Virus record (IMG/VR): IMGVR_UViG_3300045988_099805
Location: 1 to 61,173 of that record
From: a virus
DNA: 61,173 nucleotides
Reading direction: 5' to 3' (one strand)
The notes beneath the pieces are model-generated. The model was not told where the DNA came from. It ran no database searches and saw only the letters and a list, made by a program, of their open reading frames with translations. Each line of letters starts with the position of its first letter. Within the stretch, counting starts at the first letter, position 1. Both the position numbers and the translations under genes were made by a program. Below are positions 5,949 through 57,225 of this stretch, one piece after another.

Positions 5949-6027
5949 ATCTGTTTCCTTTCTAGTCTGCCATCATCAGCACCGGGAGACCGTCCCGCGG
6001 TGGACGCTCCTTTGTGGAGCGTTTCGG

Positions 6028-6297
6028 CTAATATCTACAAGGATTTTCATAGCGGATTATAACCACCTTTTCGCCTGTGCTTTTTAGCGTTCCGAAGCCG
6101 TTAAACATCGGACCATTTAAGCCTAATAATTTAGGCTGGTTATAAAGCTCTTGCCGCTGTCTTTCTGCATCCCATCCGTTGTTGTAGCCATATATAAGGC
6201 TTTTCATTTGCTCTGCTGTCTTAATCTGTGCCGGCAAATCATAAACGCATTTCTCGCCGCTCTCAAGTGTTCCTATAATCATATCAATTACCTCCAT
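6028..6297 (-). CDS. hypothetical small protein (89 aa)
   Basis: RBS tggaggta on the minus strand. First gene of the leftward operon. Confidence 0.55.
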   Translation of the reverse strand: MEVIDMIIGTLESGEKCVYDLPAQIKTAEQMKSLIYGYNNGWDAERQRQELYNQPKLLGLNGPMFNGFGTLKSTGEKVVIIRYENPCRY

Positions 6298-41732: not shown

Positions 41733-42554
41733 ATGTCAGTTAAAGGTTACAAAGCTTACGAAAAAGGAATGATTTGCAAAGGAAAGCAGTATGAGGAAAA
41801 TACTACTTACGAGGAAAGCGGAAACGAAATTTGTGAATCTGGTGTTATGCATTTTTGCAAGGAGCCGTTCGACGTGCTTAATTATTATCCATTAGTAGAT
41901 GAAAATGGCAATATTTCTGAATTTTCAGAGGTGGAAGCTGTCGGAGATGTATACGAAAAAGAGGATAAATGTGCCACGAACAAATTACACGTCGGTTTAA
42001 AGCTTGGTCTTAAAGGATTTATTAAAGCGTGTGTTGACTTTACAATCGAAAAGACAGGATTTACCTGTGATGATTCAGGCGAAAACGACAGCAAAGGAGG
42101 AAACGCAAAGATTGGTAGCTCTGGAGATTACGCACAGATTGGTAGCTCTGGACATTACGCACAGATTGGTAGCTCTGGAGATTACGCAAAGATTGGTAGC
42201 TCTGGATATTACGCACAGATTGGTAGCTCTGGAGATTCCGCAAAGATTGGTAGCTCTGGAGATTCAGCACAGATTGGTAGCTCTGGAGATTCCGCAAAGA
42301 TTGGTAGCTCTGGAGATTCCGCAAAGATTGAATCGGAAGGAAAACACTCCGTAATAATGGCGGCTGGAATGGACTCTGTTGCAAAAGCAAAAATTGGCAG
42401 TTGGATTACATTGGCTGAATGGGAAAGAAAAAATGAAAACGATAATTCTTATTGGATTCCGGTATGCGTCAAAACAGAATGTGTTGACGGAGAAAAAATT
42501 AAAGAAGATACGTTTTACCGATTAAAAAACGGAGAATTTGTGGAGCTTGAATAG
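41733..42554 (+). CDS. hypothetical protein with eight tandem IGSSGDxAx nonapeptides
   Basis: N-terminal ...GYKAYEKGMICKGKQYEENTTYE...GVMHFCKEPFDVLNYY, then the 27-bp repeats. Confidence 0.6.
   Translation: MSVKGYKAYEKGMICKGKQYEENTTYEESGNEICESGVMHFCKEPFDVLNYYPLVDENGNISEFSEVEAVGDVYEKEDKCATNKLHVGLKLGLKGFIKACVDFTIEKTGFTCDDSGENDSKGGNAKIGSSGDYAQIGSSGHYAQIGSSGDYAKIGSSGYYAQIGSSGDSAKIGSSGDSAQIGSSGDSAKIGSSGDSAKIESEGKHSVIMAAGMDSVAKAKIGSWITLAEWERKNENDNSYWIPVCVKTECVDGEKIKEDTFYRLKNGEFVELE
42111..42326 (+). repeat. 8 x 27-bp in-frame tandem repeat
   Basis: attggtagctctggagattacgcacag units with substitutions mostly in codons 6-9. Confidence 0.9.
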
Positions 42555-45924: not shown

Positions 45925-46533
45925 ATGAGTAGTAAAACATTGGAAATGGCAAGGGAACTGGTAAAAAGACTTGAAGAAGAGGAGAAAAAAAGCAAAGTCA
46001 AACTTTGTGAATTGCATCCGGGCGATACATTCAAAATTGGAGATCATGATTTTATCGTCCTCTTTCAAGATGATTTCACGGAAACAACAAGAGTAATCTC
46101 AAAAGGATTCATGGCAGAAAATATCGTATTTGATGATGATACGAGAGACTACAGCAAATCTAATCTTAGAAAGGTCATCGAGGGAGATATTCAGCCTATT
46201 ATCGAAGCGGAGGTTGGTGAAGAAAATATTGCTGAATATTCTGTTGACTTGACAACGGTTGATATGCAGGAAGAATTTTCTCATTTTAAATGCAAGGTCA
46301 GACCTATTACATTTGATGAAGCAAGAAAGTACAATGATCTTCTTGTGAATAACGAGTTAAATGATTGGTGGTGGACTTGCACACCGTGGTCTACAGCTGA
46401 AAGAGGATGGGAGTATTCAATCGCCGTTGTTGCTTCGTCCGGCAATTTCAACTACTGGGGCTGCAATGGCAACTGCGGTGTTCGCCCATTTTGTATCTTG
46501 AAATCTAATATCTTTGTATCGAAGGGAGAATAA
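45925..46533 (+). CDS. DGR variable protein 1 (202 aa)
   Basis: Its C-terminus carries VR1. A paralogue of 46536..47144. ...WWWTCTPWS...VVASSGNFNYWGCNGNCGVRPFCI. Confidence 0.8.
   Translation: MSSKTLEMARELVKRLEEEEKKSKVKLCELHPGDTFKIGDHDFIVLFQDDFTETTRVISKGFMAENIVFDDDTRDYSKSNLRKVIEGDIQPIIEAEVGEENIAEYSVDLTTVDMQEEFSHFKCKVRPITFDEARKYNDLLVNNELNDWWWTCTPWSTAERGWEYSIAVVASSGNFNYWGCNGNCGVRPFCILKSNIFVSKGE
46422..46496 (+). repeat. DGR variable repeat VR1
   Basis: Compared with the TR: 11 substitutions, all at TR adenines, plus C69->T. Confidence 0.85.
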
Positions 46534-46535
46534 TT

Positions 46536-47144
46536 ATGGCTAATTTAACAATGAAAATTTTACAGGAGCAGATCAACGACCTTAGAAATGAGGTTGCCAT
46601 TTTGAAAGCAGAAAAAAGTTTTTCTAAAATCCATACCGGTCTTAAAATCGGAGACACTTTTAAAATCGCAGGTCTTGACTGGAAGATTATTGACATTACA
46701 GACAAGGGTTATTCTTGCCTTTGTGAAATTTTGGAAGAAGAGATGAAGTTTGACGATTCTTCTAACGACTGGAGATCGAGCGTTTTAAGAGAATATTTGA
46801 ATGGGGATTTTCTCAAAAAGATATCCGATGAAGTTGGAAAAGAAAATATCGTTAAGTTCGAAAGAGATCTGTTATCTCTGGACGGTCAGACGGAATATGA
46901 AAAGTACGAGGATTTTATTTCTCTTCTTACTGTAGATGAATACAGGAAATATCGAAGTCTTATTCCAAATGAGGGAAATTGGTGGTGGCTTATTACTCCT
47001 TGGAGTACACCTTGCAACGATTATGAATATTCGGTTACCGTTGTTGCTTCGTCCGGCAGTATCGACAGCGGGAACTACAATGGCGACTTCGGTGTTCGCC
47101 CATTTTGTATCTTTTCTTCTTCAATCTTTGAATCAGAGGAGTAA
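46536..47144 (+). CDS. DGR variable protein 2 (202 aa)
   Basis: Its C-terminus carries VR2. ...WWWLITPWS...VVASSGSIDSGNYNGDFGVRPFCI. Confidence 0.8.
   Translation: MANLTMKILQEQINDLRNEVAILKAEKSFSKIHTGLKIGDTFKIAGLDWKIIDITDKGYSCLCEILEEEMKFDDSSNDWRSSVLREYLNGDFLKKISDEVGKENIVKFERDLLSLDGQTEYEKYEDFISLLTVDEYRKYRSLIPNEGNWWWLITPWSTPCNDYEYSVTVVASSGSIDSGNYNGDFGVRPFCIFSSSIFESEE
47037..47111 (+). repeat. DGR variable repeat VR2
   Basis: Compared with the TR: 9 substitutions, all at TR adenines, plus C69->T. Confidence 0.85.
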
Positions 47145-47148
47145 TTAA

Positions 47149-47520
47149 ATGGCTGGAACGGAATTAAAGGTAATCTTGAAAGCAAAAGACCTTGCTGAAC
47201 ATACACTGCGGATAACTTCAAACTGCAATAGATATCCGAAGAAATACAGATTTTCTCTTGTGGATAAAATGCAAAATAAAGCACTTGAAATCTATGAGTA
47301 TCTGTATGAATCTAATCGAACGGATTTGAAGTTGTATCGCAGGGAGCGGTCGGAGCTTCAAACCAAAGCAATAACGCATTGTGACGAACTTTTGTTTTAC
47401 ATTGAATTATCAACGAAACTAAACATCATAAATGCAAAAAGCACGGAATATTGGTCGAAGATGGTTTCTGACATTAAGCATATGGCGATTGCTTGGAGAA
47501 CTAAGGACAAAGAAAGATAA
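47149..47520 (+). CDS. avd: DGR accessory variability determinant (Avd-like four-helix-bundle protein)
   Basis: 123 aa, basic. ...RYPKKYRFSLVDKMQNKALEIYEYLYESN... pattern. Positioned between target and TR. Confidence 0.75.
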   Translation: MAGTELKVILKAKDLAEHTLRITSNCNRYPKKYRFSLVDKMQNKALEIYEYLYESNRTDLKLYRRERSELQTKAITHCDELLFYIELSTKLNIINAKSTEYWSKMVSDIKHMAIAWRTKDKER

Positions 47521-47545
47521 ATTTATTAGGTTGCGCACTGCATAA

Positions 47546-47620
47546 ACCGTTGTTGCTTCGTCCGGCAATATCAACAACAGGAACTACAATAACAACAACG
47601 GTGTTCGCCCATTCTGTATC
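47546..47620 (+). repeat. DGR template repeat (TR)
   Basis: accgttgttgcttcgtccggcaatatcaacaacaggaactacaataacaacaacggtgttcgcccattctgtatc. It is non-coding, rich in AAC/AAT codons in the VR frame, and has 22 adenines. Confidence 0.85.
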
Positions 47621-47718
47621 ACACAGACAGTTATAGTAGGTAGTAAGCCGAAATCGGAAAAAGATACAAAAAAGTGCACGACCTTTCCTAAAAGGATAAA
47701 TACAAAGGAATTTTTACT

Positions 47719-48747
47719 ATGGATAAAGATATTATTTGTGATTATGAAAATCTGTATAAGGCTTATAAGAAAGCTAAATACGGTAAAAAATTCAATGGCA
47801 GCAGTGCAAAATTTCAGACAATGAGCCTTGAAGGACTGCATCTTTTAAAAGAACAGCTTGAAAATCAGACATACCGGATGAATCCGTACAATGAATTTAA
47901 GGTCTATGAACCTAAGGAGAGAGTGATTAAATCGTGTTCTTTTAAGGATAAAGTTGTTCAACATTGTCTGTGCGATAACATATTGTATCCGAGATTGGAA
48001 AGCGAGTTCATCAAAACCAATTATGCAGGGCAGAAAGGAAAAGGAACTCATTTCGGAATGGATTGTCTAAGAGATCAAATGCTTGAGTTTTACGTAAAGC
48101 ACGGTCTTGATGGCTGGATTCTTAAATGTGATATTAAGAAGTTTTTCTACCAGATAGATCACGAAATCTTAAAAGATATTGTTGACTATCATTTTCCAGA
48201 CGAATATGTGAAGTGGTTAAATCATTTGTTTATAGACAGCACAGATGGTTTGGGACTTCCGCTTGGAAACCAAGTTGCACAGGTTTATGCTTTGTTGATG
48301 CTTAACGGGTTAGATCGTTTTATTACCGGAGAATTAGGTATAAAACTATACGGACGATATATGGACGATTTCTACTTAATCCACCAAGATAAAGGTTATT
48401 TGATGTGGTACCTTGACTGCATAAGGGAATTTGTTGCCAGTCTCAGATTGTCGCTGAATGGGAAAACGCAAATATTGCCGTTTAAAAACGGGATACTGTT
48501 TACCGGTTTTCATCATTACATTGCGAAAGACGGAAAATACATAAGAAAACTTACAGGATCGAATAAACGTAAAATCCGCAAGAAGATTAGAACATGGGTA
48601 AAGCTTGTGAAATCTGGAAGAATGACAGAAAAGAAGTTTTATGAAAAGTACAATGCCTGGAAAAATCATGCATTACACGGAAATTGCGTAAAACTTTGTT
48701 ATTCAATGGATTTATATGTAAAAGAATTATTTGAAAGCGAGGAATGA
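47719..48747 (+). CDS. DGR reverse transcriptase
   Basis: 342 aa. YGRYMDDF catalytic motif. LPLGNQVAQ resembles the DGR-RT (I/L)GxxxSQ signature. Confidence 0.9.
   Translation: MDKDIICDYENLYKAYKKAKYGKKFNGSSAKFQTMSLEGLHLLKEQLENQTYRMNPYNEFKVYEPKERVIKSCSFKDKVVQHCLCDNILYPRLESEFIKTNYAGQKGKGTHFGMDCLRDQMLEFYVKHGLDGWILKCDIKKFFYQIDHEILKDIVDYHFPDEYVKWLNHLFIDSTDGLGLPLGNQVAQVYALLMLNGLDRFITGELGIKLYGRYMDDFYLIHQDKGYLMWYLDCIREFVASLRLSLNGKTQILPFKNGILFTGFHHYIAKDGKYIRKLTGSNKRKIRKKIRTWVKLVKSGRMTEKKFYEKYNAWKNHALHGNCVKLCYSMDLYVKELFESEE

Positions 48748-51332: not shown

Positions 51333-51340
<8 letters not shown>
51155..51340 (+). CDS. hypothetical small protein (61 aa)
   Basis: ATG follows GGAGGAG. The MSVEELAEFLYG motif is shared with 58830..58997. 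Confidence 0.5.
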
Positions 51341-52527
<1,187 letters not shown>

Positions 52528-52793: not shown

Positions 52794-52997
52794 ATGCGAG
52801 AATGTAAAAGCTGCGTCCATTATGTAAATAGCAAATGCAGTAGTTGGGATTGCTTGCACGAAACTTTGCAGGACTTTGAAAACCGCTGTTATGACAAATT
52901 TTCGGAGGAGCTTATGGAAGTTCTCGAAAAAGGTGATTGTATCGAAGAAAATACAATCAAAGAAATTTCGGATAAGCTGAAAGGAGCCGTGGAATGA
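52794..52997 (+). CDS. hypothetical Cys-containing protein (67 aa)
   Basis: ATG 52794 follows AAGGAGGA. Confidence 0.5.
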   Translation: MRECKSCVHYVNSKCSSWDCLHETLQDFENRCYDKFSEELMEVLEKGDCIEENTIKEISDKLKGAVE

Positions 52998-53584
52998 GCC
53001 AGCATAAAAACATAGCACAGATTAAGGCTATCGAGAAGAAAAACCGAGAGCGGCTTCTGAAAGTGAATCCTAATCTGAATGACCGTAGCGGCATTTACTT
53101 TCTTACCCGTACAGACGAAAACGATATTTCGTATTTTTATATCGGGCAGGCAGTGAACATTATTCAGAGAATGTGCGGACACTTAACAGGGTATCAGCAT
53201 ATTGATCTTTCCGTCAAAAAAAGGGGATTTTTCAGTGAGGAAAACCCTTATGGATGGAAACTGAATTTTATCAATTATCCGAAATCAGAGCTTGACAAAA
53301 TGGAACAGTATTGGATTTTGGAGTACACAAAAAGAGGTTATCAATGCCGGTATAACAAAACAGCAGGCGGTCAAGGAGAAGGCAAGGAAAAGATAAATGA
53401 GTTTAAGCCCTCCAGAGGATACAGAGACGGTCTAAAACAGGGCGAAAAGAACCTAGCAAGGGAATTATCCTCTATTGCAGAAAAACACCTTAAAATCGAA
53501 ATTAGAGAGGACAAGAAGAACAACAAAATTTCTCAAAGGCAGTATGAGAAGTTTATGGATTTATTGAAAGTAGGTGAGGAATAA
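52994..53584 (+). CDS. GIY-YIG nuclease-domain protein
   Basis: SGIYFLT...YFYIGQAVNIIQRMCGH...EQYWILEY. Confidence 0.65.
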   Translation: MSQHKNIAQIKAIEKKNRERLLKVNPNLNDRSGIYFLTRTDENDISYFYIGQAVNIIQRMCGHLTGYQHIDLSVKKRGFFSEENPYGWKLNFINYPKSELDKMEQYWILEYTKRGYQCRYNKTAGGQGEGKEKINEFKPSRGYRDGLKQGEKNLARELSSIAEKHLKIEIREDKKNNKISQRQYEKFMDLLKVGEE

Positions 53585-53889
53585 TGAGCGGTGGAAGTTG
53601 GAGCTATCTGTATTCCAGAGAAGCTGATGAACTTATACAGTCTGGAAATATTGAATTGTTGGAAGAAATGGCTGATTATCTCAACCAAAACGGATATGAA
53701 GATGTGGCGAAAGATACAAGGCGGTTAGTTGAATATATCAAATCAGCTAAAATAAGAGTGGAAACACTCTTTGAAATGTTAAGTCCTGTTTTTAAAGCTG
53801 TTGAATGGTACTATAGTGCAGATTGGGGCAAAGACAAAGTTGACGAGGCAATAGAAGAATATAGGAACGGAAAGGGTGATTCAAAATGA
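53584..53889 (+). CDS. hypothetical protein (101 aa)
   Basis: Track ORF with an ATGA-type overlap. Confidence 0.5.
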   Translation: MSGGSWSYLYSREADELIQSGNIELLEEMADYLNQNGYEDVAKDTRRLVEYIKSAKIRVETLFEMLSPVFKAVEWYYSADWGKDKVDEAIEEYRNGKGDSK

Positions 53890-54161
53890 AGATTTTAAGT
53901 AAGAATAAATATAATAAACTCATTGAAGATTTAGAGGAATTACAGGAAAATCTAGAGAAACTCAAAAGGACAAACGAGAGTATCGGGAAAAAGCTGGAAG
54001 ATAAAAAGACAAGTTGCAAGCTGAATAGTGGCAGTGATTTCTGCTTTAACTGCAAAAACTCTTACAGATATAAGACATATTATGCAATGGGAGAAAGCGA
54101 ACAATGCGGTTGCTTGCTTAATGTATCTTGCGAGGATTTTGAAAGAAAAGAAGATAACTAA
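53886..54161 (+). CDS. hypothetical coiled-coil/Cys protein (91 aa)
   Basis: Track ORF with an overlapping start. Confidence 0.5.
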   Translation: MKILSKNKYNKLIEDLEELQENLEKLKRTNESIGKKLEDKKTSCKLNSGSDFCFNCKNSYRYKTYYAMGESEQCGCLLNVSCEDFERKEDN

Positions 54162-54515
54162 CTAAAAATCAAAGAAAGGAATAGGTTGTCCGGACATAAA
54201 ACCGAGGTTTCCTTTTTGTAAGAGAAAATGAATTTTGAAAATTATTCTTGTGATAATCAGATGTCTATATTTGACTTCACAAGAGAACCAATTAGCATAA
54301 CAAAGCCTATCCGATTGATAGAATTATTTGCCGGATATGGTTCGCAGGCTATGGCGTTAAAGAGAATAGGTGCTAAGTTTGAACATTACAGAGTTGTGGA
54401 GTTTGATAAGTATGCTATTGCAAGTTATAACGCAGTACACGGAACGAATTTTCCTACAATGGATATAACAAAGGTCCACGCAGAAGATTTAAACATTTGT
54501 GACACAGCAGCATTC

Positions 54516-54538
54516 ACTTACTTACTTACTTACTTACT
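54516..54538 (+). repeat. (ACTT)5.75 tetranucleotide microsatellite
   Basis: acttacttacttacttacttact, immediately 5' of the motif IV codons. Confidence 0.95.
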
Positions 54539-55011
54539 CATTTCCTTGTACGGATTTATCAGTTGCTGGAAAATAAGCCGGAATGTCTAAGGGCAGTGGC
54601 ACAAGAAGCGGTCTGTTGTGGGAAGTCGAGAGAATACTAACAGAAATCAGAGATAGTGACGGAGAATTACCACAGATTTTATTTATGGAAAATGTACCAC
54701 AGGTACACGGAAAGAAAAATATTGATGATTTTAAAAAGTGGTTGGAGTTCTTGGAGAGTTTAGGGTACAAAAATTATTGGCAAGATTTGAATGCTAAAAA
54801 TTATGGAGTGGCGCAGAACAGAAACAGATGTTTTATGTTTTCGTTCCTTGGTAATTACTCATATGATTTTCCGAACCATATACCACTCAAAAAGAAGTTG
54901 AAAGACTATCTTGAGGATAATGTGGATGAAAGGTATTACATCCACAACGAAAAGGCTGACAAGCTGATAAAACAGCTTATTGACAACGGCACATTACCAC
55001 AACACAATATT

Positions 55012-55062
<51 letters not shown>

Positions 55063-55271
55063 TTGGGTTGTCGAGAATGAATGCAATTCTTAATTATAAT
55101 CATGTAAATAAAATTGATAATGGTGTAGCCAAAACATTGTGTGCTAGAGATTATAAAGGCTTTGGAACAGGCTTTGATACAATGAATGGAGTAATTGAAT
55201 GGAAAAATTAACAGACGCTATCGGAATAGTGCTTTTTGAAAGTGAAAAATTCGGTGGCGAAAAGGTACTTA

Positions 55272-55278
55272 GGGGGGG
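55272..55278 (+). repeat. G7 homopolymer at a frame junction inside the methyltransferase
   Basis: Two frames overlap open only across 55273-55291. G8 would read VLRGGICPTLRS. Confidence 0.8.
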
Positions 55279-55965
55279 ATTTGCCCTACCCTAAGATCCA
55301 ATAAAACAAGTAGTGGAGTGATTGAAGTAATGGCAGATGTAAAGGTAATAGGACAAATGGATAACACGATAGACAACACTTTTGAAAGTGCTAATCGTGT
55401 TTATGGCATAGAGGGTGTGGCACCAACCATGAATACTTGTGGAGGTGGTGGATTGCATCCTAAAATTTTGGAAAACAAGATAGTTGCTATGCGTGGCAGA
55501 AATCCTGATAATCCGTCAGACAGAACCGCGGGAAACCCAACGGAGCAGAGATTAGAGGTAAATATGCAAGGTACAAGTAATTGCTTAACAAGTGTGCAGA
55601 AAGATAATTTTGTGCTTGAAAAACCTTTATTGCTAGGAGGTGTCGGAAAAGAAAACGAGTTTGGCACACAATACAGGCAAGGAAACAGAGTGTATAGTTC
55701 CAATGCTTGCGCTATGGCATTAAATTCTCAGCCGGTTGGAAATGCTGGAGGAAATTCATACTTATACAATGTTGACTATCGTATCAGAAAGCTAACGCCG
55801 AGAGAATACGGACGGCTGATGGGTGTATCCGATGAAGACATATCTAAAATGGCAGCAGTAAACAGCAATACGCAGTTGTATAAGCAATTCGGAAACAGCA
55901 TTGTTGTGGATGTTATGTGTGCTATGTTTGAAAATTTGAATATCGAACAGAAATGAGGTGGAAAA

Positions 55966-56204
55966 ATGGAGTATAAGAAAATGTCATTATCAGAAGTTTT
56001 GCAAGACTTAAAAAAGAGCTTGCAGAAACCGGAATTACAGATGAATCGTATCGTGCTTATGATGATTTTGTTTCCGGGGAATTTTTCGGAATCGACTATG
56101 CAATACGGCTCATAGAGGAAAATCTTATGCCGGAAAACAAAAATAGGTGTATTGACGTTAAATGTCCTAATTGCGGTACTGTATCTAAGGTGGTGTTGTT
56201 ATGA
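55966..56204 (+). CDS. small zinc-ribbon protein needing a -1 shift at A AAA AAG (56010-56016), or a 1-nt indel
   Basis: Frame 1 gives MEYKKMSLSEVLQDLKK, then junk and a stop at 56115. The -1 frame continues as ELAETGITDESYRAYDDFVSGEFFGIDYAIRLIEEN...CPNCG and ends in an ATGA overlap with the next gene, but it has no start of its own. Confidence 0.4.
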
Positions 56205-56427: not shown

Positions 56428-57225
56428 GTGGACGGATGGATAAAGCTTTACAGGAAAATGGTTGACTGCTGTATTTGGCAATCTAACGAACCGTTTGACA
56501 AAAGAAGTGCTTGGGTGGATTTGCTTCTTCTTATGCAACACAAAGAAAAGAAGATGATGGTTGATGGAGTTGTTAAGTCTGTGAAGCGTGGCTCATATAT
56601 GTTCAGCATTGACAAATTGGCGTCACGTTGGCGTTGGTCTCGTAACAAGGTTAAGCGTTACTTGAGTGAACTGGAAAGTGAACAAATGTTGTACACAGAA
56701 CGAACCAACAAAGGAACGCTCATAACCGTAGTAAATTACGGGGTTTATCAAGGGTGTGAAAAATTTGGTGAACCAACAGACGAACCAACAGACGAACCAT
56801 CAGACGAACCATCAGACGAACCATCAGACGAACCATCAGACGAACCACAAAACAAGAATATAAAGAATGTAAGAAGTAAAGAAAGAAAGAAATATATATG
56901 TGCATTTGAGGAATTTTGGAAAATTTACCCACGGAAAATCAACAAGGGTAAGGCGTATGAGTGTTACTGTGCCAGAGTAAACAGCGGTTATTCCGAGGCG
57001 GAGCTTTTAGAAGCCGTCAGAAATTATGCGGATGAATGCAAAAAGAAAGGCACGCCTACGGAGTACATAAAGCATGGAACGACATTTCTTAGTGCCGCCA
57101 CACCGTTTGTTGATTATTTAGACAAGAATTACAAGGGAGGCAATGATGGATGTAATAGACAGGACAATAGACAAAGTGATGGCGGATATTCAGATTATGA
57201 GAAATTCTTCCGAGAGGCACATTGA
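56428..57225 (+). CDS. phage replication initiator / replisome organiser (DnaD-like)
   Basis: GTG start after AAAGGTGG. N-terminal WIKLYRKM...WVDLLLL...SIDKLASRWRWSRNKVKRYLSELE wHTH. (EPTD/EPSD)n linker. C-terminal FEEFWKIYPRK domain. Confidence 0.55.
   Translation: MDGWIKLYRKMVDCCIWQSNEPFDKRSAWVDLLLLMQHKEKKMMVDGVVKSVKRGSYMFSIDKLASRWRWSRNKVKRYLSELESEQMLYTERTNKGTLITVVNYGVYQGCEKFGEPTDEPTDEPSDEPSDEPSDEPSDEPQNKNIKNVRSKERKKYICAFEEFWKIYPRKINKGKAYECYCARVNSGYSEAELLEAVRNYADECKKKGTPTEYIKHGTTFLSAATPFVDYLDKNYKGGNDGCNRQDNRQSDGGYSDYEKFFREAH
56770..56841 (+). repeat. 6 x 12-bp tandem repeat GAACCA(A/T)CAGAC inside the initiator gene
   Basis: Counted from the sequence, plus a partial seventh unit. Encodes the EPTDEPTDEPSDEPSDEPSDEPSD linker. 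Confidence 0.9.

What the first reader, a model, noticed from the sequence alone, without database searches (positions are those of the whole stretch)
54228..54600. (ACTT)n microsatellite placed exactly between motif I-III and the catalytic motif IV of a C5 methyltransferase, plus an in-frame TAA
ORF 54228..54590 carries motif I (ELFAGYGSQ). It then runs through ACTT x 5.75 (54516-54538) into nonsense (..LLISLYGFISCWKISRNV*). In the +1 frame, the very next codons read SFPCTDLSVAGK, the catalytic motif IV with a Pro-Cys pair.
Removing one ACTT unit, or adding two, gives ..AAFTYLLTYSFPCTDLSVAGK.., a near-textbook junction. The tract is therefore sitting one unit away from ON.
Thirteen codons further on, an in-frame TAA (54574-54576) interrupts AGK*AGMSKGSGTRSGLLWEVE at a position where related enzymes carry a sense codon. 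A single C-to-T change from CAA (Gln) would explain it. Even in the ON frame the gene would then need readthrough or reversion. Alternatively, the downstream ATG at 54583 yields an N-terminally truncated protein.
Basis: partly seen in the sequence, partly recalled or inferred. Interest (0 to 1): 0.75.

Follow-up and report, generated by a model that had tools for sequence, protein, structure and literature searches.

The report
Slippage-prone repeats in phage methyltransferase
A gut phage's DNA-methylating enzyme gene is interrupted by a four-letter repeat that gains and loses copies far faster than ordinary mutation, a switch-like behaviour seen across many related phages, but in this phage's own lineage the gene is also knocked out by a stop codon present in every copy sampled.

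Summary
(ACTT)5.75 lies at 54516-54538 between motif I and the Pro-Cys motif IV, and an in-frame TAA lies at 54574-76 where homologues have Gln (CAA/CAG).

New points:
1. The in-frame length is 4.75 units, encoding the conserved TYLLTY. The tract is a real slippage hotspot: 17 of 89 clade relatives are off-length. In the window's own near-clonal lineage, which has zero SNPs over 3.1 kb, alleles of 3.75, 4.75 and 5.75 coexist.
2. The TAA is present in all 10 lineage genomes that cover the site, whatever the ACTT length. Restoring 4.75 units therefore cannot turn the gene on.
3. The locus is a split C5 methyltransferase resembling M.AquI: geneA 54228-55211 and geneB 55199-55956. It carries two further hypervariable repeats. 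(GACA)12.75 is out of frame here and ranges from 2.75 to at least 23 units in relatives. Poly-G is G7 and out of frame here, and G6-G11 in relatives.
4. A neighbouring PAPS-reductase-like gene is frameshifted by (ACAG)10.75.

Best reading: an inactivated copy of a methylase whose family shows contingency-locus behaviour. Phase variation is supported for the family but not as a working switch in this phage. This is a new variant of a known kind; the closest precedents are phase-variable Type III mod genes and the phage T2 agt contingency locus.

The parts
54228..55211 (+). geneA: N-terminal half of a split cytosine-5 DNA methyltransferase (motifs I-VIII plus the first target-recognition segment). 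In the window it is broken into three frames by ACTT +1 unit, the TAA, and an out-of-frame GACA tract.
   Evidence: The pieces match PF00145 positions 2-59, 64-79 and 85-227. The repaired protein hits TIGR00675 dcm at 134.9 bits and aligns to M.HhaI residues 12-214 and to M.MpeI. The natural stop EWKN-TAA at 55209-55211 is conserved in about 55 relatives. dN/dS against L263 is 0.064.
54516..54538 (+). (ACTT)5.75 coding microsatellite. The in-frame length is 4.75 units, encoding TYLLTY directly before motif IV (SFPC).
   Evidence: TRF. Homologues and relatives carry 4.75 units or same-length interrupted versions. Off-length alleles of 2.75, 3.75, 5.75 and 6.75 occur on many different flank backgrounds. 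Lengths 3.75, 4.75 and 5.75 coexist in the window's near-clonal lineage.
54574..54576 (+). In-frame TAA nonsense codon at a conserved Gln (GK-Q-AGM), inside the catalytic loop after motif IV.
   Evidence: All 80 IMG/VR relatives have CAA or CAG here, as does the closest relative L263. All 10 genomes of the window's own lineage that cover the site have TAA. TAA is a normal stop codon in this genome.
55012..55062 (+). (GACA)12.75 hypervariable tract at the junction between the catalytic domain and the target-recognition region. It reads DRQT in all three frames. It is out of frame here; +1 or -2 units would restore the frame.
   Evidence: TRF and frame map. Relatives range from 2.75 to at least 23 units, with about 26 in frame, 31 out of frame and 10 contigs ending inside the tract. 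Lineage alleles are 5.75, 6.75, 9.75, 12.75 and 13.75.
55199..55956 (+). geneB: C-terminal half of the split methyltransferase (MEKLTDAIG..., further target-recognition segments, motifs IX-X). Its ATG overlaps the end of geneA, with GGAG at 55188-55191 seven nt upstream. It is frameshifted at the poly-G tract.
   Evidence: The stop/ATG overlap is conserved. Intact geneB ORFs of 252-353 aa exist in L028, L031, L032, L039, L183 and L233, and of 258-259 aa in L301 and L303. It matches PF00145 positions 241-322, phrog_26324 and M.HhaI residues 236-317.
55272..55278 (+). Poly-G tract (G7) 24 codons into geneB. It is out of frame here; G8 or G11 is in frame.
   Evidence: Unique relatives carry G6 x5, G7 x12, G8 x11 and G9 x7. 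In the intact P0087 lineage, four contigs with no SNPs carry G11 and G8 (ON) and G7 x2 (OFF). G7 is found in all 7 lineage genomes that cover the tract.
51333..52527 (+). Neighbouring PAPS-reductase-like gene (phrog_424), frameshifted by (ACAG)10.75 at 51717-51759. Removing one unit gives a 396-aa ORF.
   Evidence: ORFs and repair. Family assignment. Lineage alleles are 5.75, 8.75, 9.75 and 10.75; the 9.75 allele gives an intact 396-aa gene in L292 and L293. The same tract position is hypervariable in homologues of only 52-71% identity, 4 of 10 in frame.

Best explanation
The locus encodes a phage cytosine-5 DNA methyltransferase built as two overlapping genes.
- GeneA makes the AdoMet-binding and catalytic half (motifs I-VIII).
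- GeneB makes the DNA-recognition half with motifs IX-X.

Across the phage family, three repeats inside these genes change length by slipped-strand mispairing during replication: (ACTT)n before the catalytic Cys, (GACA)n after motif VIII, and poly-G near the start of geneB. Each length change shifts the reading frame on or off (shown by comparison).

The inferred function is bet-hedging. Methylated progeny would escape host Type II restriction. Unmethylated progeny would escape methylation-dependent Type IV restriction or avoid the cost of methylation.

In the window's own lineage this system is inactivated. A CAA-to-TAA nonsense mutation is present in every sampled genome, poly-G is out of frame in all of them, and one relative has lost the whole locus. 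The ACTT 5.75 allele is therefore a +1-unit slippage variant in a copy that no longer makes a full-length enzyme. The repeats keep slipping although the gene is dead.
For: Sequence shows directly:
- The frame map and lesions.

Family membership and split architecture:
-.
- M.AquI is a natural split at the same place (PMC3404938).

Hypermutability:
- 17 of 89 clade sequences are frameshifted at ACTT.
- 13 frameshifts fall in the 19-nt tract, against about 2 disruptions in the other roughly 750 nt of the domain.
- ACTT-off alleles are otherwise intact in 17 of 24 cases.
- In six lineage genomes aligned over 52994-56090, the only differences are ACTT and GACA copy number.
- Over a further 6.6 kb, the only other differences are a DGR variable region, the ACAG tract and a few SNPs.

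The family-level switch is real:
- In the P0087 lineage, four contigs with no SNPs carry poly-G G11 and G8 (geneB ON) and G7 (OFF).
- Fully in-frame split pairs exist in L028, L031 and L032.
- The long perfect ACAG tract is kept at the same site in homologues of 52-71% identity.

Recent function:
- dN/dS is 0.064 at dS 0.61.

Death in this lineage:
- TAA in 10 of 10 genomes and G7 in 7 of 7.
- The locus is deleted in L295.

Concept precedent:
- The T2 agt contingency locus (PMC12633550).
Against: - There are no read-level data, so switching within one population, and its reversibility, are inferred from differences between samples.
- There are no methylome or activity data, so the split enzyme's activity and its anti-restriction role are inferred.
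- The lineage is so young (zero SNPs) that relaxed selection on the dead copy cannot be shown.
- The ACTT tract encodes a conserved peptide and is synonymously interrupted in 10 of 89 relatives. Its instability may be an accident of codon choice rather than a selected switch.
- The GACA tract is in frame in about 46% of relatives, against 33% expected at random. That is only weak evidence of selection.
- The host is unknown. Only unreliable MAG hits were found, two of them Lachnospiraceae.
Confidence: 0.72

Rival explanations
1. One reading: (ACTT)n is a live ON/OFF switch in this phage. The TAA is overcome either by readthrough or reversion, or by termination-reinitiation at ATG 54583, six nt after the stop. 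Reinitiation would give a three-piece enzyme (residues 1-114, then 118 to about 327, then geneB) that assembles.
For: - ACTT varies among otherwise identical genomes, and 4.75 is the majority allele, 6 of 10.
- The stop and the ATG are 6 nt apart.
- C5 methyltransferase fragments can complement each other, and natural two-piece enzymes exist (PMC3404938).
- Everything downstream of the TAA is still open within its own frames.
Against: - The known natural split (M.AquI) and the active M.SssI fragment pairs in the passages read of PMC3404938 break within the variable region. I know of none inside the catalytic loop after motif IV.
- There is no good Shine-Dalgarno sequence before 54583.
- TAA is the commonest genuine stop codon here.
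- Even with the TAA bypassed, geneB is out of frame (G7) in all 7 lineage genomes, and GACA is out of frame in most.
- The locus is dispensable, since it is deleted in L295.
Confidence: 0.08
2. There is no adaptive switching anywhere. The methyltransferase is a dispensable accessory gene decaying across the family, and repeat-length variation is only mutational noise at accidental repeats.
For: - 62 of 64 IMG/VR relatives do not encode a single uninterrupted ORF from motif I to motif X.
- Only about 14% are expected to have both halves in frame.
- Some relatives lack the gene or lack the repeats (P0001).
- The ACTT tract is synonymously interrupted in some lineages.
Against: - Purifying selection on the catalytic half is strong: dN/dS 0.064.
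- Most of the 'broken' relatives are simply the two-gene architecture with a conserved stop/ATG overlap.
- Intact in-frame pairs exist.
- Off alleles carry no lesions other than repeat length.
- Long perfect tracts of up to at least 23 units persist at the same site in homologues of 52-71% identity. That is hard to maintain without selection.
- G8 and G11 are both in frame in one clone.
Confidence: 0.13
3. Sequencing or assembly artefact: the repeat lengths and the stop are errors.
For: Repeats are error-prone for assemblers, and many contigs end inside the GACA tract.
Against: - The identical 5.75+TAA allele is found in an independent ENA scaffold and in Logan assemblies.
- The TAA recurs in assemblies from several studies.
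- The structural genes show no frameshifts.
- The disruptions are confined to repeats.
Confidence: 0.02
4. Programmed +1 ribosomal frameshifting or bypassing at the ACTT tract restores the frame during translation.
For: CUU-A within the repeat superficially resembles the Ty1 CUU-AGG-C +1 slip site (own knowledge). The repeat has no stop codon in any sense frame.
Against: - There is no rare or hungry codon or stimulator after the site.
- The in-frame 4.75 allele is the norm in the family and in the lineage.
- The TAA follows 13 codons later.
Confidence: 0.02

Closest known systems
Phase-variable Type III mod methyltransferases (phasevarions) of Haemophilus, Neisseria and Moraxella
   Same: Tetranucleotide repeats lie inside the ORF of a DNA methyltransferase. 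Slipped-strand mispairing shifts the frame ON or OFF. A variable target-recognition region is exchanged between alleles (PMC1557822, PMC6902483; listed).
   Different: Those are chromosomal bacterial N6-adenine enzymes of Type III R-M systems that reprogram host gene expression. This is a phage-borne orphan cytosine-5 enzyme, split into two genes, with three separate repeats. In the window it is additionally killed by a nonsense codon.
Phage contingency loci: homopolymer tract in T2 agt (Gomez, Barrick, Waters, bioRxiv 2025, PMC12633550)
   Same: A phage DNA-modification gene is toggled by reversible slippage in a simple repeat. This gives mixed progeny that hedge between restriction systems recognising modified and unmodified DNA.
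   Different: That case is a 9-nt poly-A tract in a glucosyltransferase of a lytic coliphage, shown experimentally. Here there are long tetranucleotide arrays (up to at least 23 units) plus poly-G in a C5 methyltransferase of uncultured gut phages, shown only by comparison of natural genomes. The term searches of that paper returned no occurrence of 'methyltransferase' or 'tetranucleotide'.
M.AquI, a natural two-subunit C5 methyltransferase
   Same: [quoted passage not shown] The smaller subunit carries the rest of the variable region and motifs IX-X (PMC3404938). GeneA aligns to M.HhaI 12-214 and geneB to M.HhaI 236-317.
   Different: M.AquI belongs to a cyanobacterial R-M system (own knowledge) and is not known to carry repeats. 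Heterodimer activity was not tested here.
Multispecific C5 methyltransferases of Bacillus phages (SPR, phi3T, rho11s, H2)
   Same: They are phage-encoded anti-restriction C5 enzymes with several target-recognising domains in tandem between motifs VIII and IX. There is a weak full-length tblastn match to H2 and rho11s: 25% identity over 94% of the query. CPTL/APTM-type segments recur in geneA and geneB.
   Different: Those are single polypeptides without repeats. The number and specificity of active recognition domains here are unknown.

Membership tests
Cytosine-5 DNA methyltransferase (PF00145 / TIGR00675 dcm) | Motif I FxGxG AdoMet-binding loop | tested here: met
   ELFAGYGSQ in ORF 54228..54590. 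It matches PF00145 positions 2-59 at E=1.7e-8 and is invariant in 16 homologues.
Cytosine-5 DNA methyltransferase (PF00145 / TIGR00675 dcm) | Motif IV Pro-Cys catalytic dipeptide in the same reading frame as motif I | tested here: not met
   SFPCTDLS is present but in the +1 frame, because ACTT is 5.75 rather than 4.75 units. A TAA follows 9 codons after the Cys.
Cytosine-5 DNA methyltransferase (PF00145 / TIGR00675 dcm) | Motifs VI (ENV), VIII (QxRxR), IX and X (GNS) present | tested here: met
   MENVPQV, QNRNR and QFGNSIVV are all present. Pfam matches cover positions 85-227 and 241-322. The repaired geneA scores 134.9 bits against the TIGR00675 cutoff of 100.65.
SSR contingency locus (phase-variable gene) | Perfect simple repeat inside the ORF whose unit length is not a multiple of three | tested here: met
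   ACTT x5.75, GACA x12.75 and G7.
SSR contingency locus (phase-variable gene) | Repeat-number polymorphism among otherwise near-identical genomes that alters the reading frame | tested here: met
   Among lineage genomes, ACTT is 3.75, 4.75 or 5.75 and GACA ranges from 5.75 to 13.75. Six of them aligned over 3.1 kb show zero SNPs. Poly-G is G7, G8 or G11 in the P0087 lineage.
SSR contingency locus (phase-variable gene) | High-frequency reversible switching within one clonal population | not testable with these tools
   This needs raw reads or plaque-lineage fluctuation tests. Only consensus assemblies were available.
SSR contingency locus (phase-variable gene) | The in-frame repeat length yields a functional product (a phenotype switches) | tested here: not met
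   For the window's lineage, the ACTT 4.75 alleles still carry the TAA, and geneB is G7 in all genomes. The feature is met at sequence level in other lineages (L028, L031, L032, L301, L303). Activity was not tested.
Split (two-subunit) C5 methyltransferase, M.AquI type | Two adjacent ORFs: motifs I-VIII plus proximal variable region, then distal variable region plus motifs IX-X | tested here: met
   The EWKN-TAA stop overlapping the ATG of MEKLTDAIG is conserved in about 55 relatives, with GGAG seven nt upstream. Separate in-frame gene calls of 342 aa and 258-259 aa exist. PDB alignments give M.HhaI 12-214 and 236-317.
Split (two-subunit) C5 methyltransferase, M.AquI type | The two polypeptides assemble into an active enzyme | not testable with these tools
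   This requires co-expression and a methylation assay.
Multispecific phage C5 methyltransferase (SPR / phi3T / rho11s / H2) | Several independent target-recognising domains in tandem, each conferring one specificity | tested here: inconclusive
   Segments with a recurring [CA]PT[LM]...GG...I.E pattern occur in tandem, and relatives differ by insertion or loss of such modules. Similarity to H2 and rho11s is only 25%. Specificities are unknown.
Pseudogene | A premature stop or frameshift fixed in the lineage, and the gene dispensable | tested here: met
   TAA in 10 of 10 lineage genomes and G7 in 7 of 7. The locus is absent from L295. Relaxed selection could not be tested because the lineage has zero SNPs.

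The most novel reading that the evidence does not exclude
The three repeats (ACTT, GACA, poly-G), together with the ACAG tract in the neighbouring PAPS-reductase-like gene, could be an evolved multi-tier contingency system of a widespread gut-phage family. It would switch DNA modification on and off.

Through the frame chosen after (GACA)n and the poly-G state of geneB, it might also change which target-recognition modules are attached, and so change methylation specificity. Two observations point this way:
- In one relative (L066) the alternative frame after the GACA tract is used as the linker of a full-length 576-aa single-chain enzyme.
- Recognition cassettes are exchanged by recombination: L263 is 88% identical upstream and about 99.5% identical downstream of the tract.

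The window would then be a snapshot of such a system caught after a knock-out.
Probability: 0.25. Interest if true: 0.75.

Novelty: new variant of a known kind. Interest (0 to 1): 0.55.

Why it matters
If the family-level reading holds, it would be direct natural-population evidence that phages use microsatellite contingency loci in their own DNA-modification genes. That idea was reported experimentally only in 2025, for a homopolymer in T2 agt.

Here the signal is unusually clean. Genomes from independent human gut samples are identical base for base, except at four simple repeats and a diversity-generating retroelement target.

Practical consequences:
- These repeats fragment short-read assemblies. 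Many contigs end inside the GACA tract.
- They make gene callers report 'broken' methylases.
- Phage methylation state, and therefore host range against restriction systems, cannot be read from a consensus genome.

For this particular window the message is more sober. The methylase copy is dead, and the ACTT length is a neutral marker of slippage.

Tried and rejected
- I first 'repaired' five lesions to build a 576-aa single-chain protein. The supposed A5 frameshift at 55203-55207 proved to be a conserved stop/ATG gene boundary, so I withdrew that repair.
- Megablast of the locus against INPHARED phages found nothing. tblastn gave only distant hits, the best being Dulem virus 39 at 51%.
- The GTDB genome scan returned only 8 MAG contigs with conflicting taxonomy, so the host is unresolved.
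- A JGI metagenome scan for the lineage-specific ACTT/TAA context found nothing.
- An exact look-up of the 120-aa ORF failed because gene callers start at Met-12. The 109-aa version worked.
- Stop-codon recoding of TAA is rejected on stop-codon usage.
- Programmed frameshifting is rejected, because in-frame 4.75 is the norm.
- The association between interrupted tracts and stability (0 of 10 off-length, against 17 of 79 for perfect tracts) is too small a sample to be significant.
- Literature searches for phage-encoded, repeat-driven phase-variable methyltransferases found no such case. They found only the T2 agt preprint.

Full report
OBSERVATION

The window is a tailed-phage genome segment. 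It encodes terminase, portal, major head protein, RecT, and DnaD- and DnaC-like loaders. The genes lie almost all on one strand, and the structural ORFs are long, intact and tightly packed.

- ORF 54228..54590 carries motif I (ELFAGYGSQ) and matches PF00145.
- It runs through a perfect (ACTT)5.75 tract at 54516-54538.
- The +1 frame continues TYSFPCTDLSVAGK, then TAA at 54574-76, then AGMSKGSGTRSGLLWEVE.

Intact homologues read FTYLLTYSFPCTDLSVAGKQAGMSKGSG. The in-frame tract is therefore 4.75 units and encodes TYLLTY. The window has one extra unit. The TAA replaces a Gln codon that is CAA or CAG in all 80 best IMG/VR relatives. M.MpeI also has Gln at this position.

Three perfect tetranucleotide tracts of at least 19 nt in 61 kb is far beyond chance; shuffles give 0.03 tracts of at least 15 nt.

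WHAT THE LOCUS REALLY IS

After motif VIII the gene runs into a second perfect tract, (GACA)12.75 at 55012-55062. This tract reads DRQT in every frame and is out of frame here.

The reading frame then ends at a conserved stop, EWKN-TAA at 55209-11. That stop overlaps an ATG at 55199, which has GGAG seven nt upstream and opens MEKLTDAIGIVLFESEKFGGEKVLRGG. This arrangement is identical in about 55 relatives. It is therefore a gene boundary, not the lesion I first assumed.

The second gene, geneB (55199-55956), carries a poly-G tract at 55272-78. It then carries the remaining target-recognition segments and motifs IX-X. G7 is out of frame; G8 is in frame.

GeneA aligns to M.HhaI residues 12-214 and geneB to residues 236-317. 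This is the same bisection as the natural two-subunit enzyme M.AquI (PMC3404938).
- Intact stand-alone geneB ORFs of 252-353 aa exist in six relatives.
- Fully in-frame geneA plus geneB pairs exist in L028, L031 and L032.
- Some relatives have fused single-chain versions instead: L034, L066 and P0001.

IS THE ACTT TRACT A MUTATIONAL SWITCH?

Family level.
- The off-length alleles sit on many different flanking haplotypes. One haplotype appears with 3.75, 4.75 and 5.75.
- I drew an unbiased sample of the closest clade using a 26-nt motif-IV pattern that is independent of tract length. It gave 89 unique sequences: 62 perfect 4.75, 10 same-length but synonymously interrupted, and 17 (19%) off-length.
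- Thirteen frameshifts fall in the 19-nt tract, against about two disruptions in the other roughly 750 nt of the catalytic domain.
- The off alleles are otherwise intact in 17 of 24 cases.
- No in-frame expansion (7.75) was seen.

THE WINDOW'S OWN LINEAGE

Looking up the exact 196-aa neighbour protein (52994-53584) retrieved contigs of the same phage. They come from independent human-gut metagenomes held in ENA, NCBI and Logan.

Over 52994-56090, six of these genomes do not differ by a single substitution. The only differences are ACTT and GACA copy number.

Over the 6.6 kb upstream, the differences are:
- a 32-nt cluster of adenine-specific changes, which is a DGR variable region;
- the ACAG tract;
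- a handful of SNPs.

Repeat states in the lineage:
- ACTT: 5.75 in the window, L289 and L300; 4.75 in L290-L294 and L297; 3.75 in L298.
- GACA: 5.75, 6.75, 9.75, 12.75, 13.75, and at least 13 where a contig ends in the tract.
- Poly-G: G7 in all seven genomes that cover it.
- TAA: present in all ten.

L295 lacks the whole methylase locus.

So the ACTT tract is truly hypermutable. However, the in-frame 4.75 allele, the majority in the lineage, still terminates at the TAA. The exact 5.75+TAA product occurs only in one ENA scaffold and one Logan contig besides the window.

THE FAMILY-LEVEL SWITCH

An independent lineage with an intact enzyme was found through P0087. It is a temperate phage with an integrase, and one copy is integrated next to rimP/nusA. 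Four of its contigs have zero SNPs over 1.85 kb and differ only in poly-G:
- G11 gives geneB of 259 aa (ON).
- G8 gives geneB of 258 aa (ON).
- G7, seen twice, gives 31 aa plus 214 aa (OFF).

The GACA tract ranges from 2.75 to at least 23 units across relatives. About 26 are in frame, 31 are out of frame, and 10 contigs terminate inside it, often at 55 nt, which looks like an assembler k-mer limit.

The catalytic half has been under strong purifying selection. dN/dS is 0.064 at dS 0.61 between the window and L263.

L263 is 88% identical to the window upstream of the GACA tract. From the tract through motif IX it is about 99.5% identical and has the same 12.75 units. This indicates recent recombinational exchange of the recognition cassette.

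The neighbouring PAPS-reductase-like gene (51333-52527) is frameshifted by (ACAG)10.75.
- The 9.75 allele gives an intact 396-aa gene in two lineage members.
- The same site carries a variable perfect tract in homologues of only 52-71% identity.

MECHANISM

Shown:
- Repeat-length changes, of the kind produced by slipped-strand mispairing, are the dominant form of variation at this locus.
- They toggle the reading frames of both halves of a split C5 methyltransferase.

Inferred:
- The two halves assemble like M.AquI and methylate phage DNA.
- Stochastic ON/OFF progeny hedge between Type II restriction, which is defeated by methylation, and methylation-dependent Type IV restriction. This is the logic demonstrated for the poly-A tract of T2 agt (PMC12633550).

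For the window itself the system is off four times over: ACTT +1, TAA, GACA out of frame, and poly-G out of frame. One of these lesions cannot be reversed by slippage and is present in every sampled lineage member. The best description is therefore an inactivated copy in which the repeats continue to slip.

Whether ACTT is an evolved switch or an accidental coding repeat cannot be decided. It is interrupted synonymously in 10 of 89 relatives, and none of those is off-length, but the numbers are too small.

REJECTED ALTERNATIVES
- TAA recoding: TAA ends 14 of 30 long ORFs.
- Random sequencing error: the alleles are reproduced in independent assemblies and the structural genes are intact.
- Programmed frameshifting: in-frame 4.75 is the norm.
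- An N-terminally truncated product from ATG 54583: it would lack motif I and the catalytic Pro-Cys.

COMPARISON AND NOVELTY

Repeat-driven phase variation of DNA methyltransferases is classical for bacterial Type III mod genes, which also use tetranucleotide repeats and variable recognition domains. Phage contingency loci were first reported in a 2025 preprint, for homopolymers in coliphages.

I found no report of tetranucleotide-driven or poly-G-driven switching of a phage C5 methyltransferase, or of a split enzyme with a repeat in each half. I therefore rate it a new variant of a known kind.

Interest is moderate. The family-level pattern is striking and well supported by natural near-clonal comparisons. 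The specific feature flagged in this window, however, sits in a dead gene.

Noticed in passing
window 45925-48747 (VR1 46411-46525, VR2 47025-47139, TR 47534-47648, RT ORF 47719-48747): A diversity-generating retroelement. Two adjacent 202-aa target genes each end in a 115-nt variable repeat. These differ from a template repeat upstream of an RVT_1 reverse transcriptase only at template adenines. Among near-clonal genomes from other samples, 16 variable sites cluster at 47058-47089.
   Followed up: partly
window 51333-52527, tract 51717-51759: A PAPS-reductase-like gene (phrog_424) is frameshifted by a perfect (ACAG)10.75 tract. Lineage alleles are 5.75, 8.75, 9.75 (intact 396 aa) and 10.75. 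The same site is a variable tract in homologues of 52-71% identity. The gene is absent from the closest IMG/VR relatives L263, L258 and L260.
   Followed up: yes
L295 (ENA ERZ28573421 scaffold_2001), region corresponding to window ~53590-55960: A member of the window's own lineage lacks the two small ORFs and the entire methyltransferase locus. A 73-aa ORF sits in their place (gene table).
   Followed up: no
L263:2548-4310 versus window 54200-55960: Mosaic identity: about 88% upstream of the GACA tract, and about 99.5% from the tract to motif IX, with the same 12.75 units. This suggests recombinational exchange of the recognition cassette. L263 also has a +1 indel (A5 against A4 near window 55472) and a +2 indel about 35 nt downstream. 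Together these put some 12 codons into another frame.
   Followed up: partly
L007, L010, L011, L022, L033, L035, L040, L043, L049, L068, L070 (IMG/VR contig ends): Many assembled phage contigs terminate inside the GACA tract, frequently after exactly 55 nt. The repeat therefore breaks short-read assemblies and sets apparent genome ends.
   Followed up: partly
L066:5730-6660: In this relative, the alternative reading frame after the GACA tract (CVDGTINKPQQ...) joins directly to a recognition module and the C-terminal domain. This gives a full-length 576-aa single-chain enzyme. In other relatives that frame is open for about 45 codons and then stops.
   Followed up: no
L004, L014, L015 around locus positions 6020-6130: A different module follows geneA in some relatives: MEVIGSIYTGVSADF*RGVYPIARCVKAENHDLGVI. 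It has a conserved in-frame stop, and a further G-run frameshift lies before CSPTLSTMQGG. This is unexplained.
   Followed up: no
window 42103-42330 and 56770-56847: Two in-frame tandem repeats: 27 nt x8.4 (93% matches) inside ORF 41733..42554, and 12 nt x6.5 encoding EPSD/EPTD inside the DnaD-like replication protein ORF 56428..57225.
   Followed up: no
L302 (NCBI GCA_900524235.1, ULVX01068402.1, 80,483 bp): A related phage carrying the intact split methylase has an integrase and lies next to bacterial rimP and nusA. It is therefore an integrated prophage that could reveal the host.
   Followed up: no
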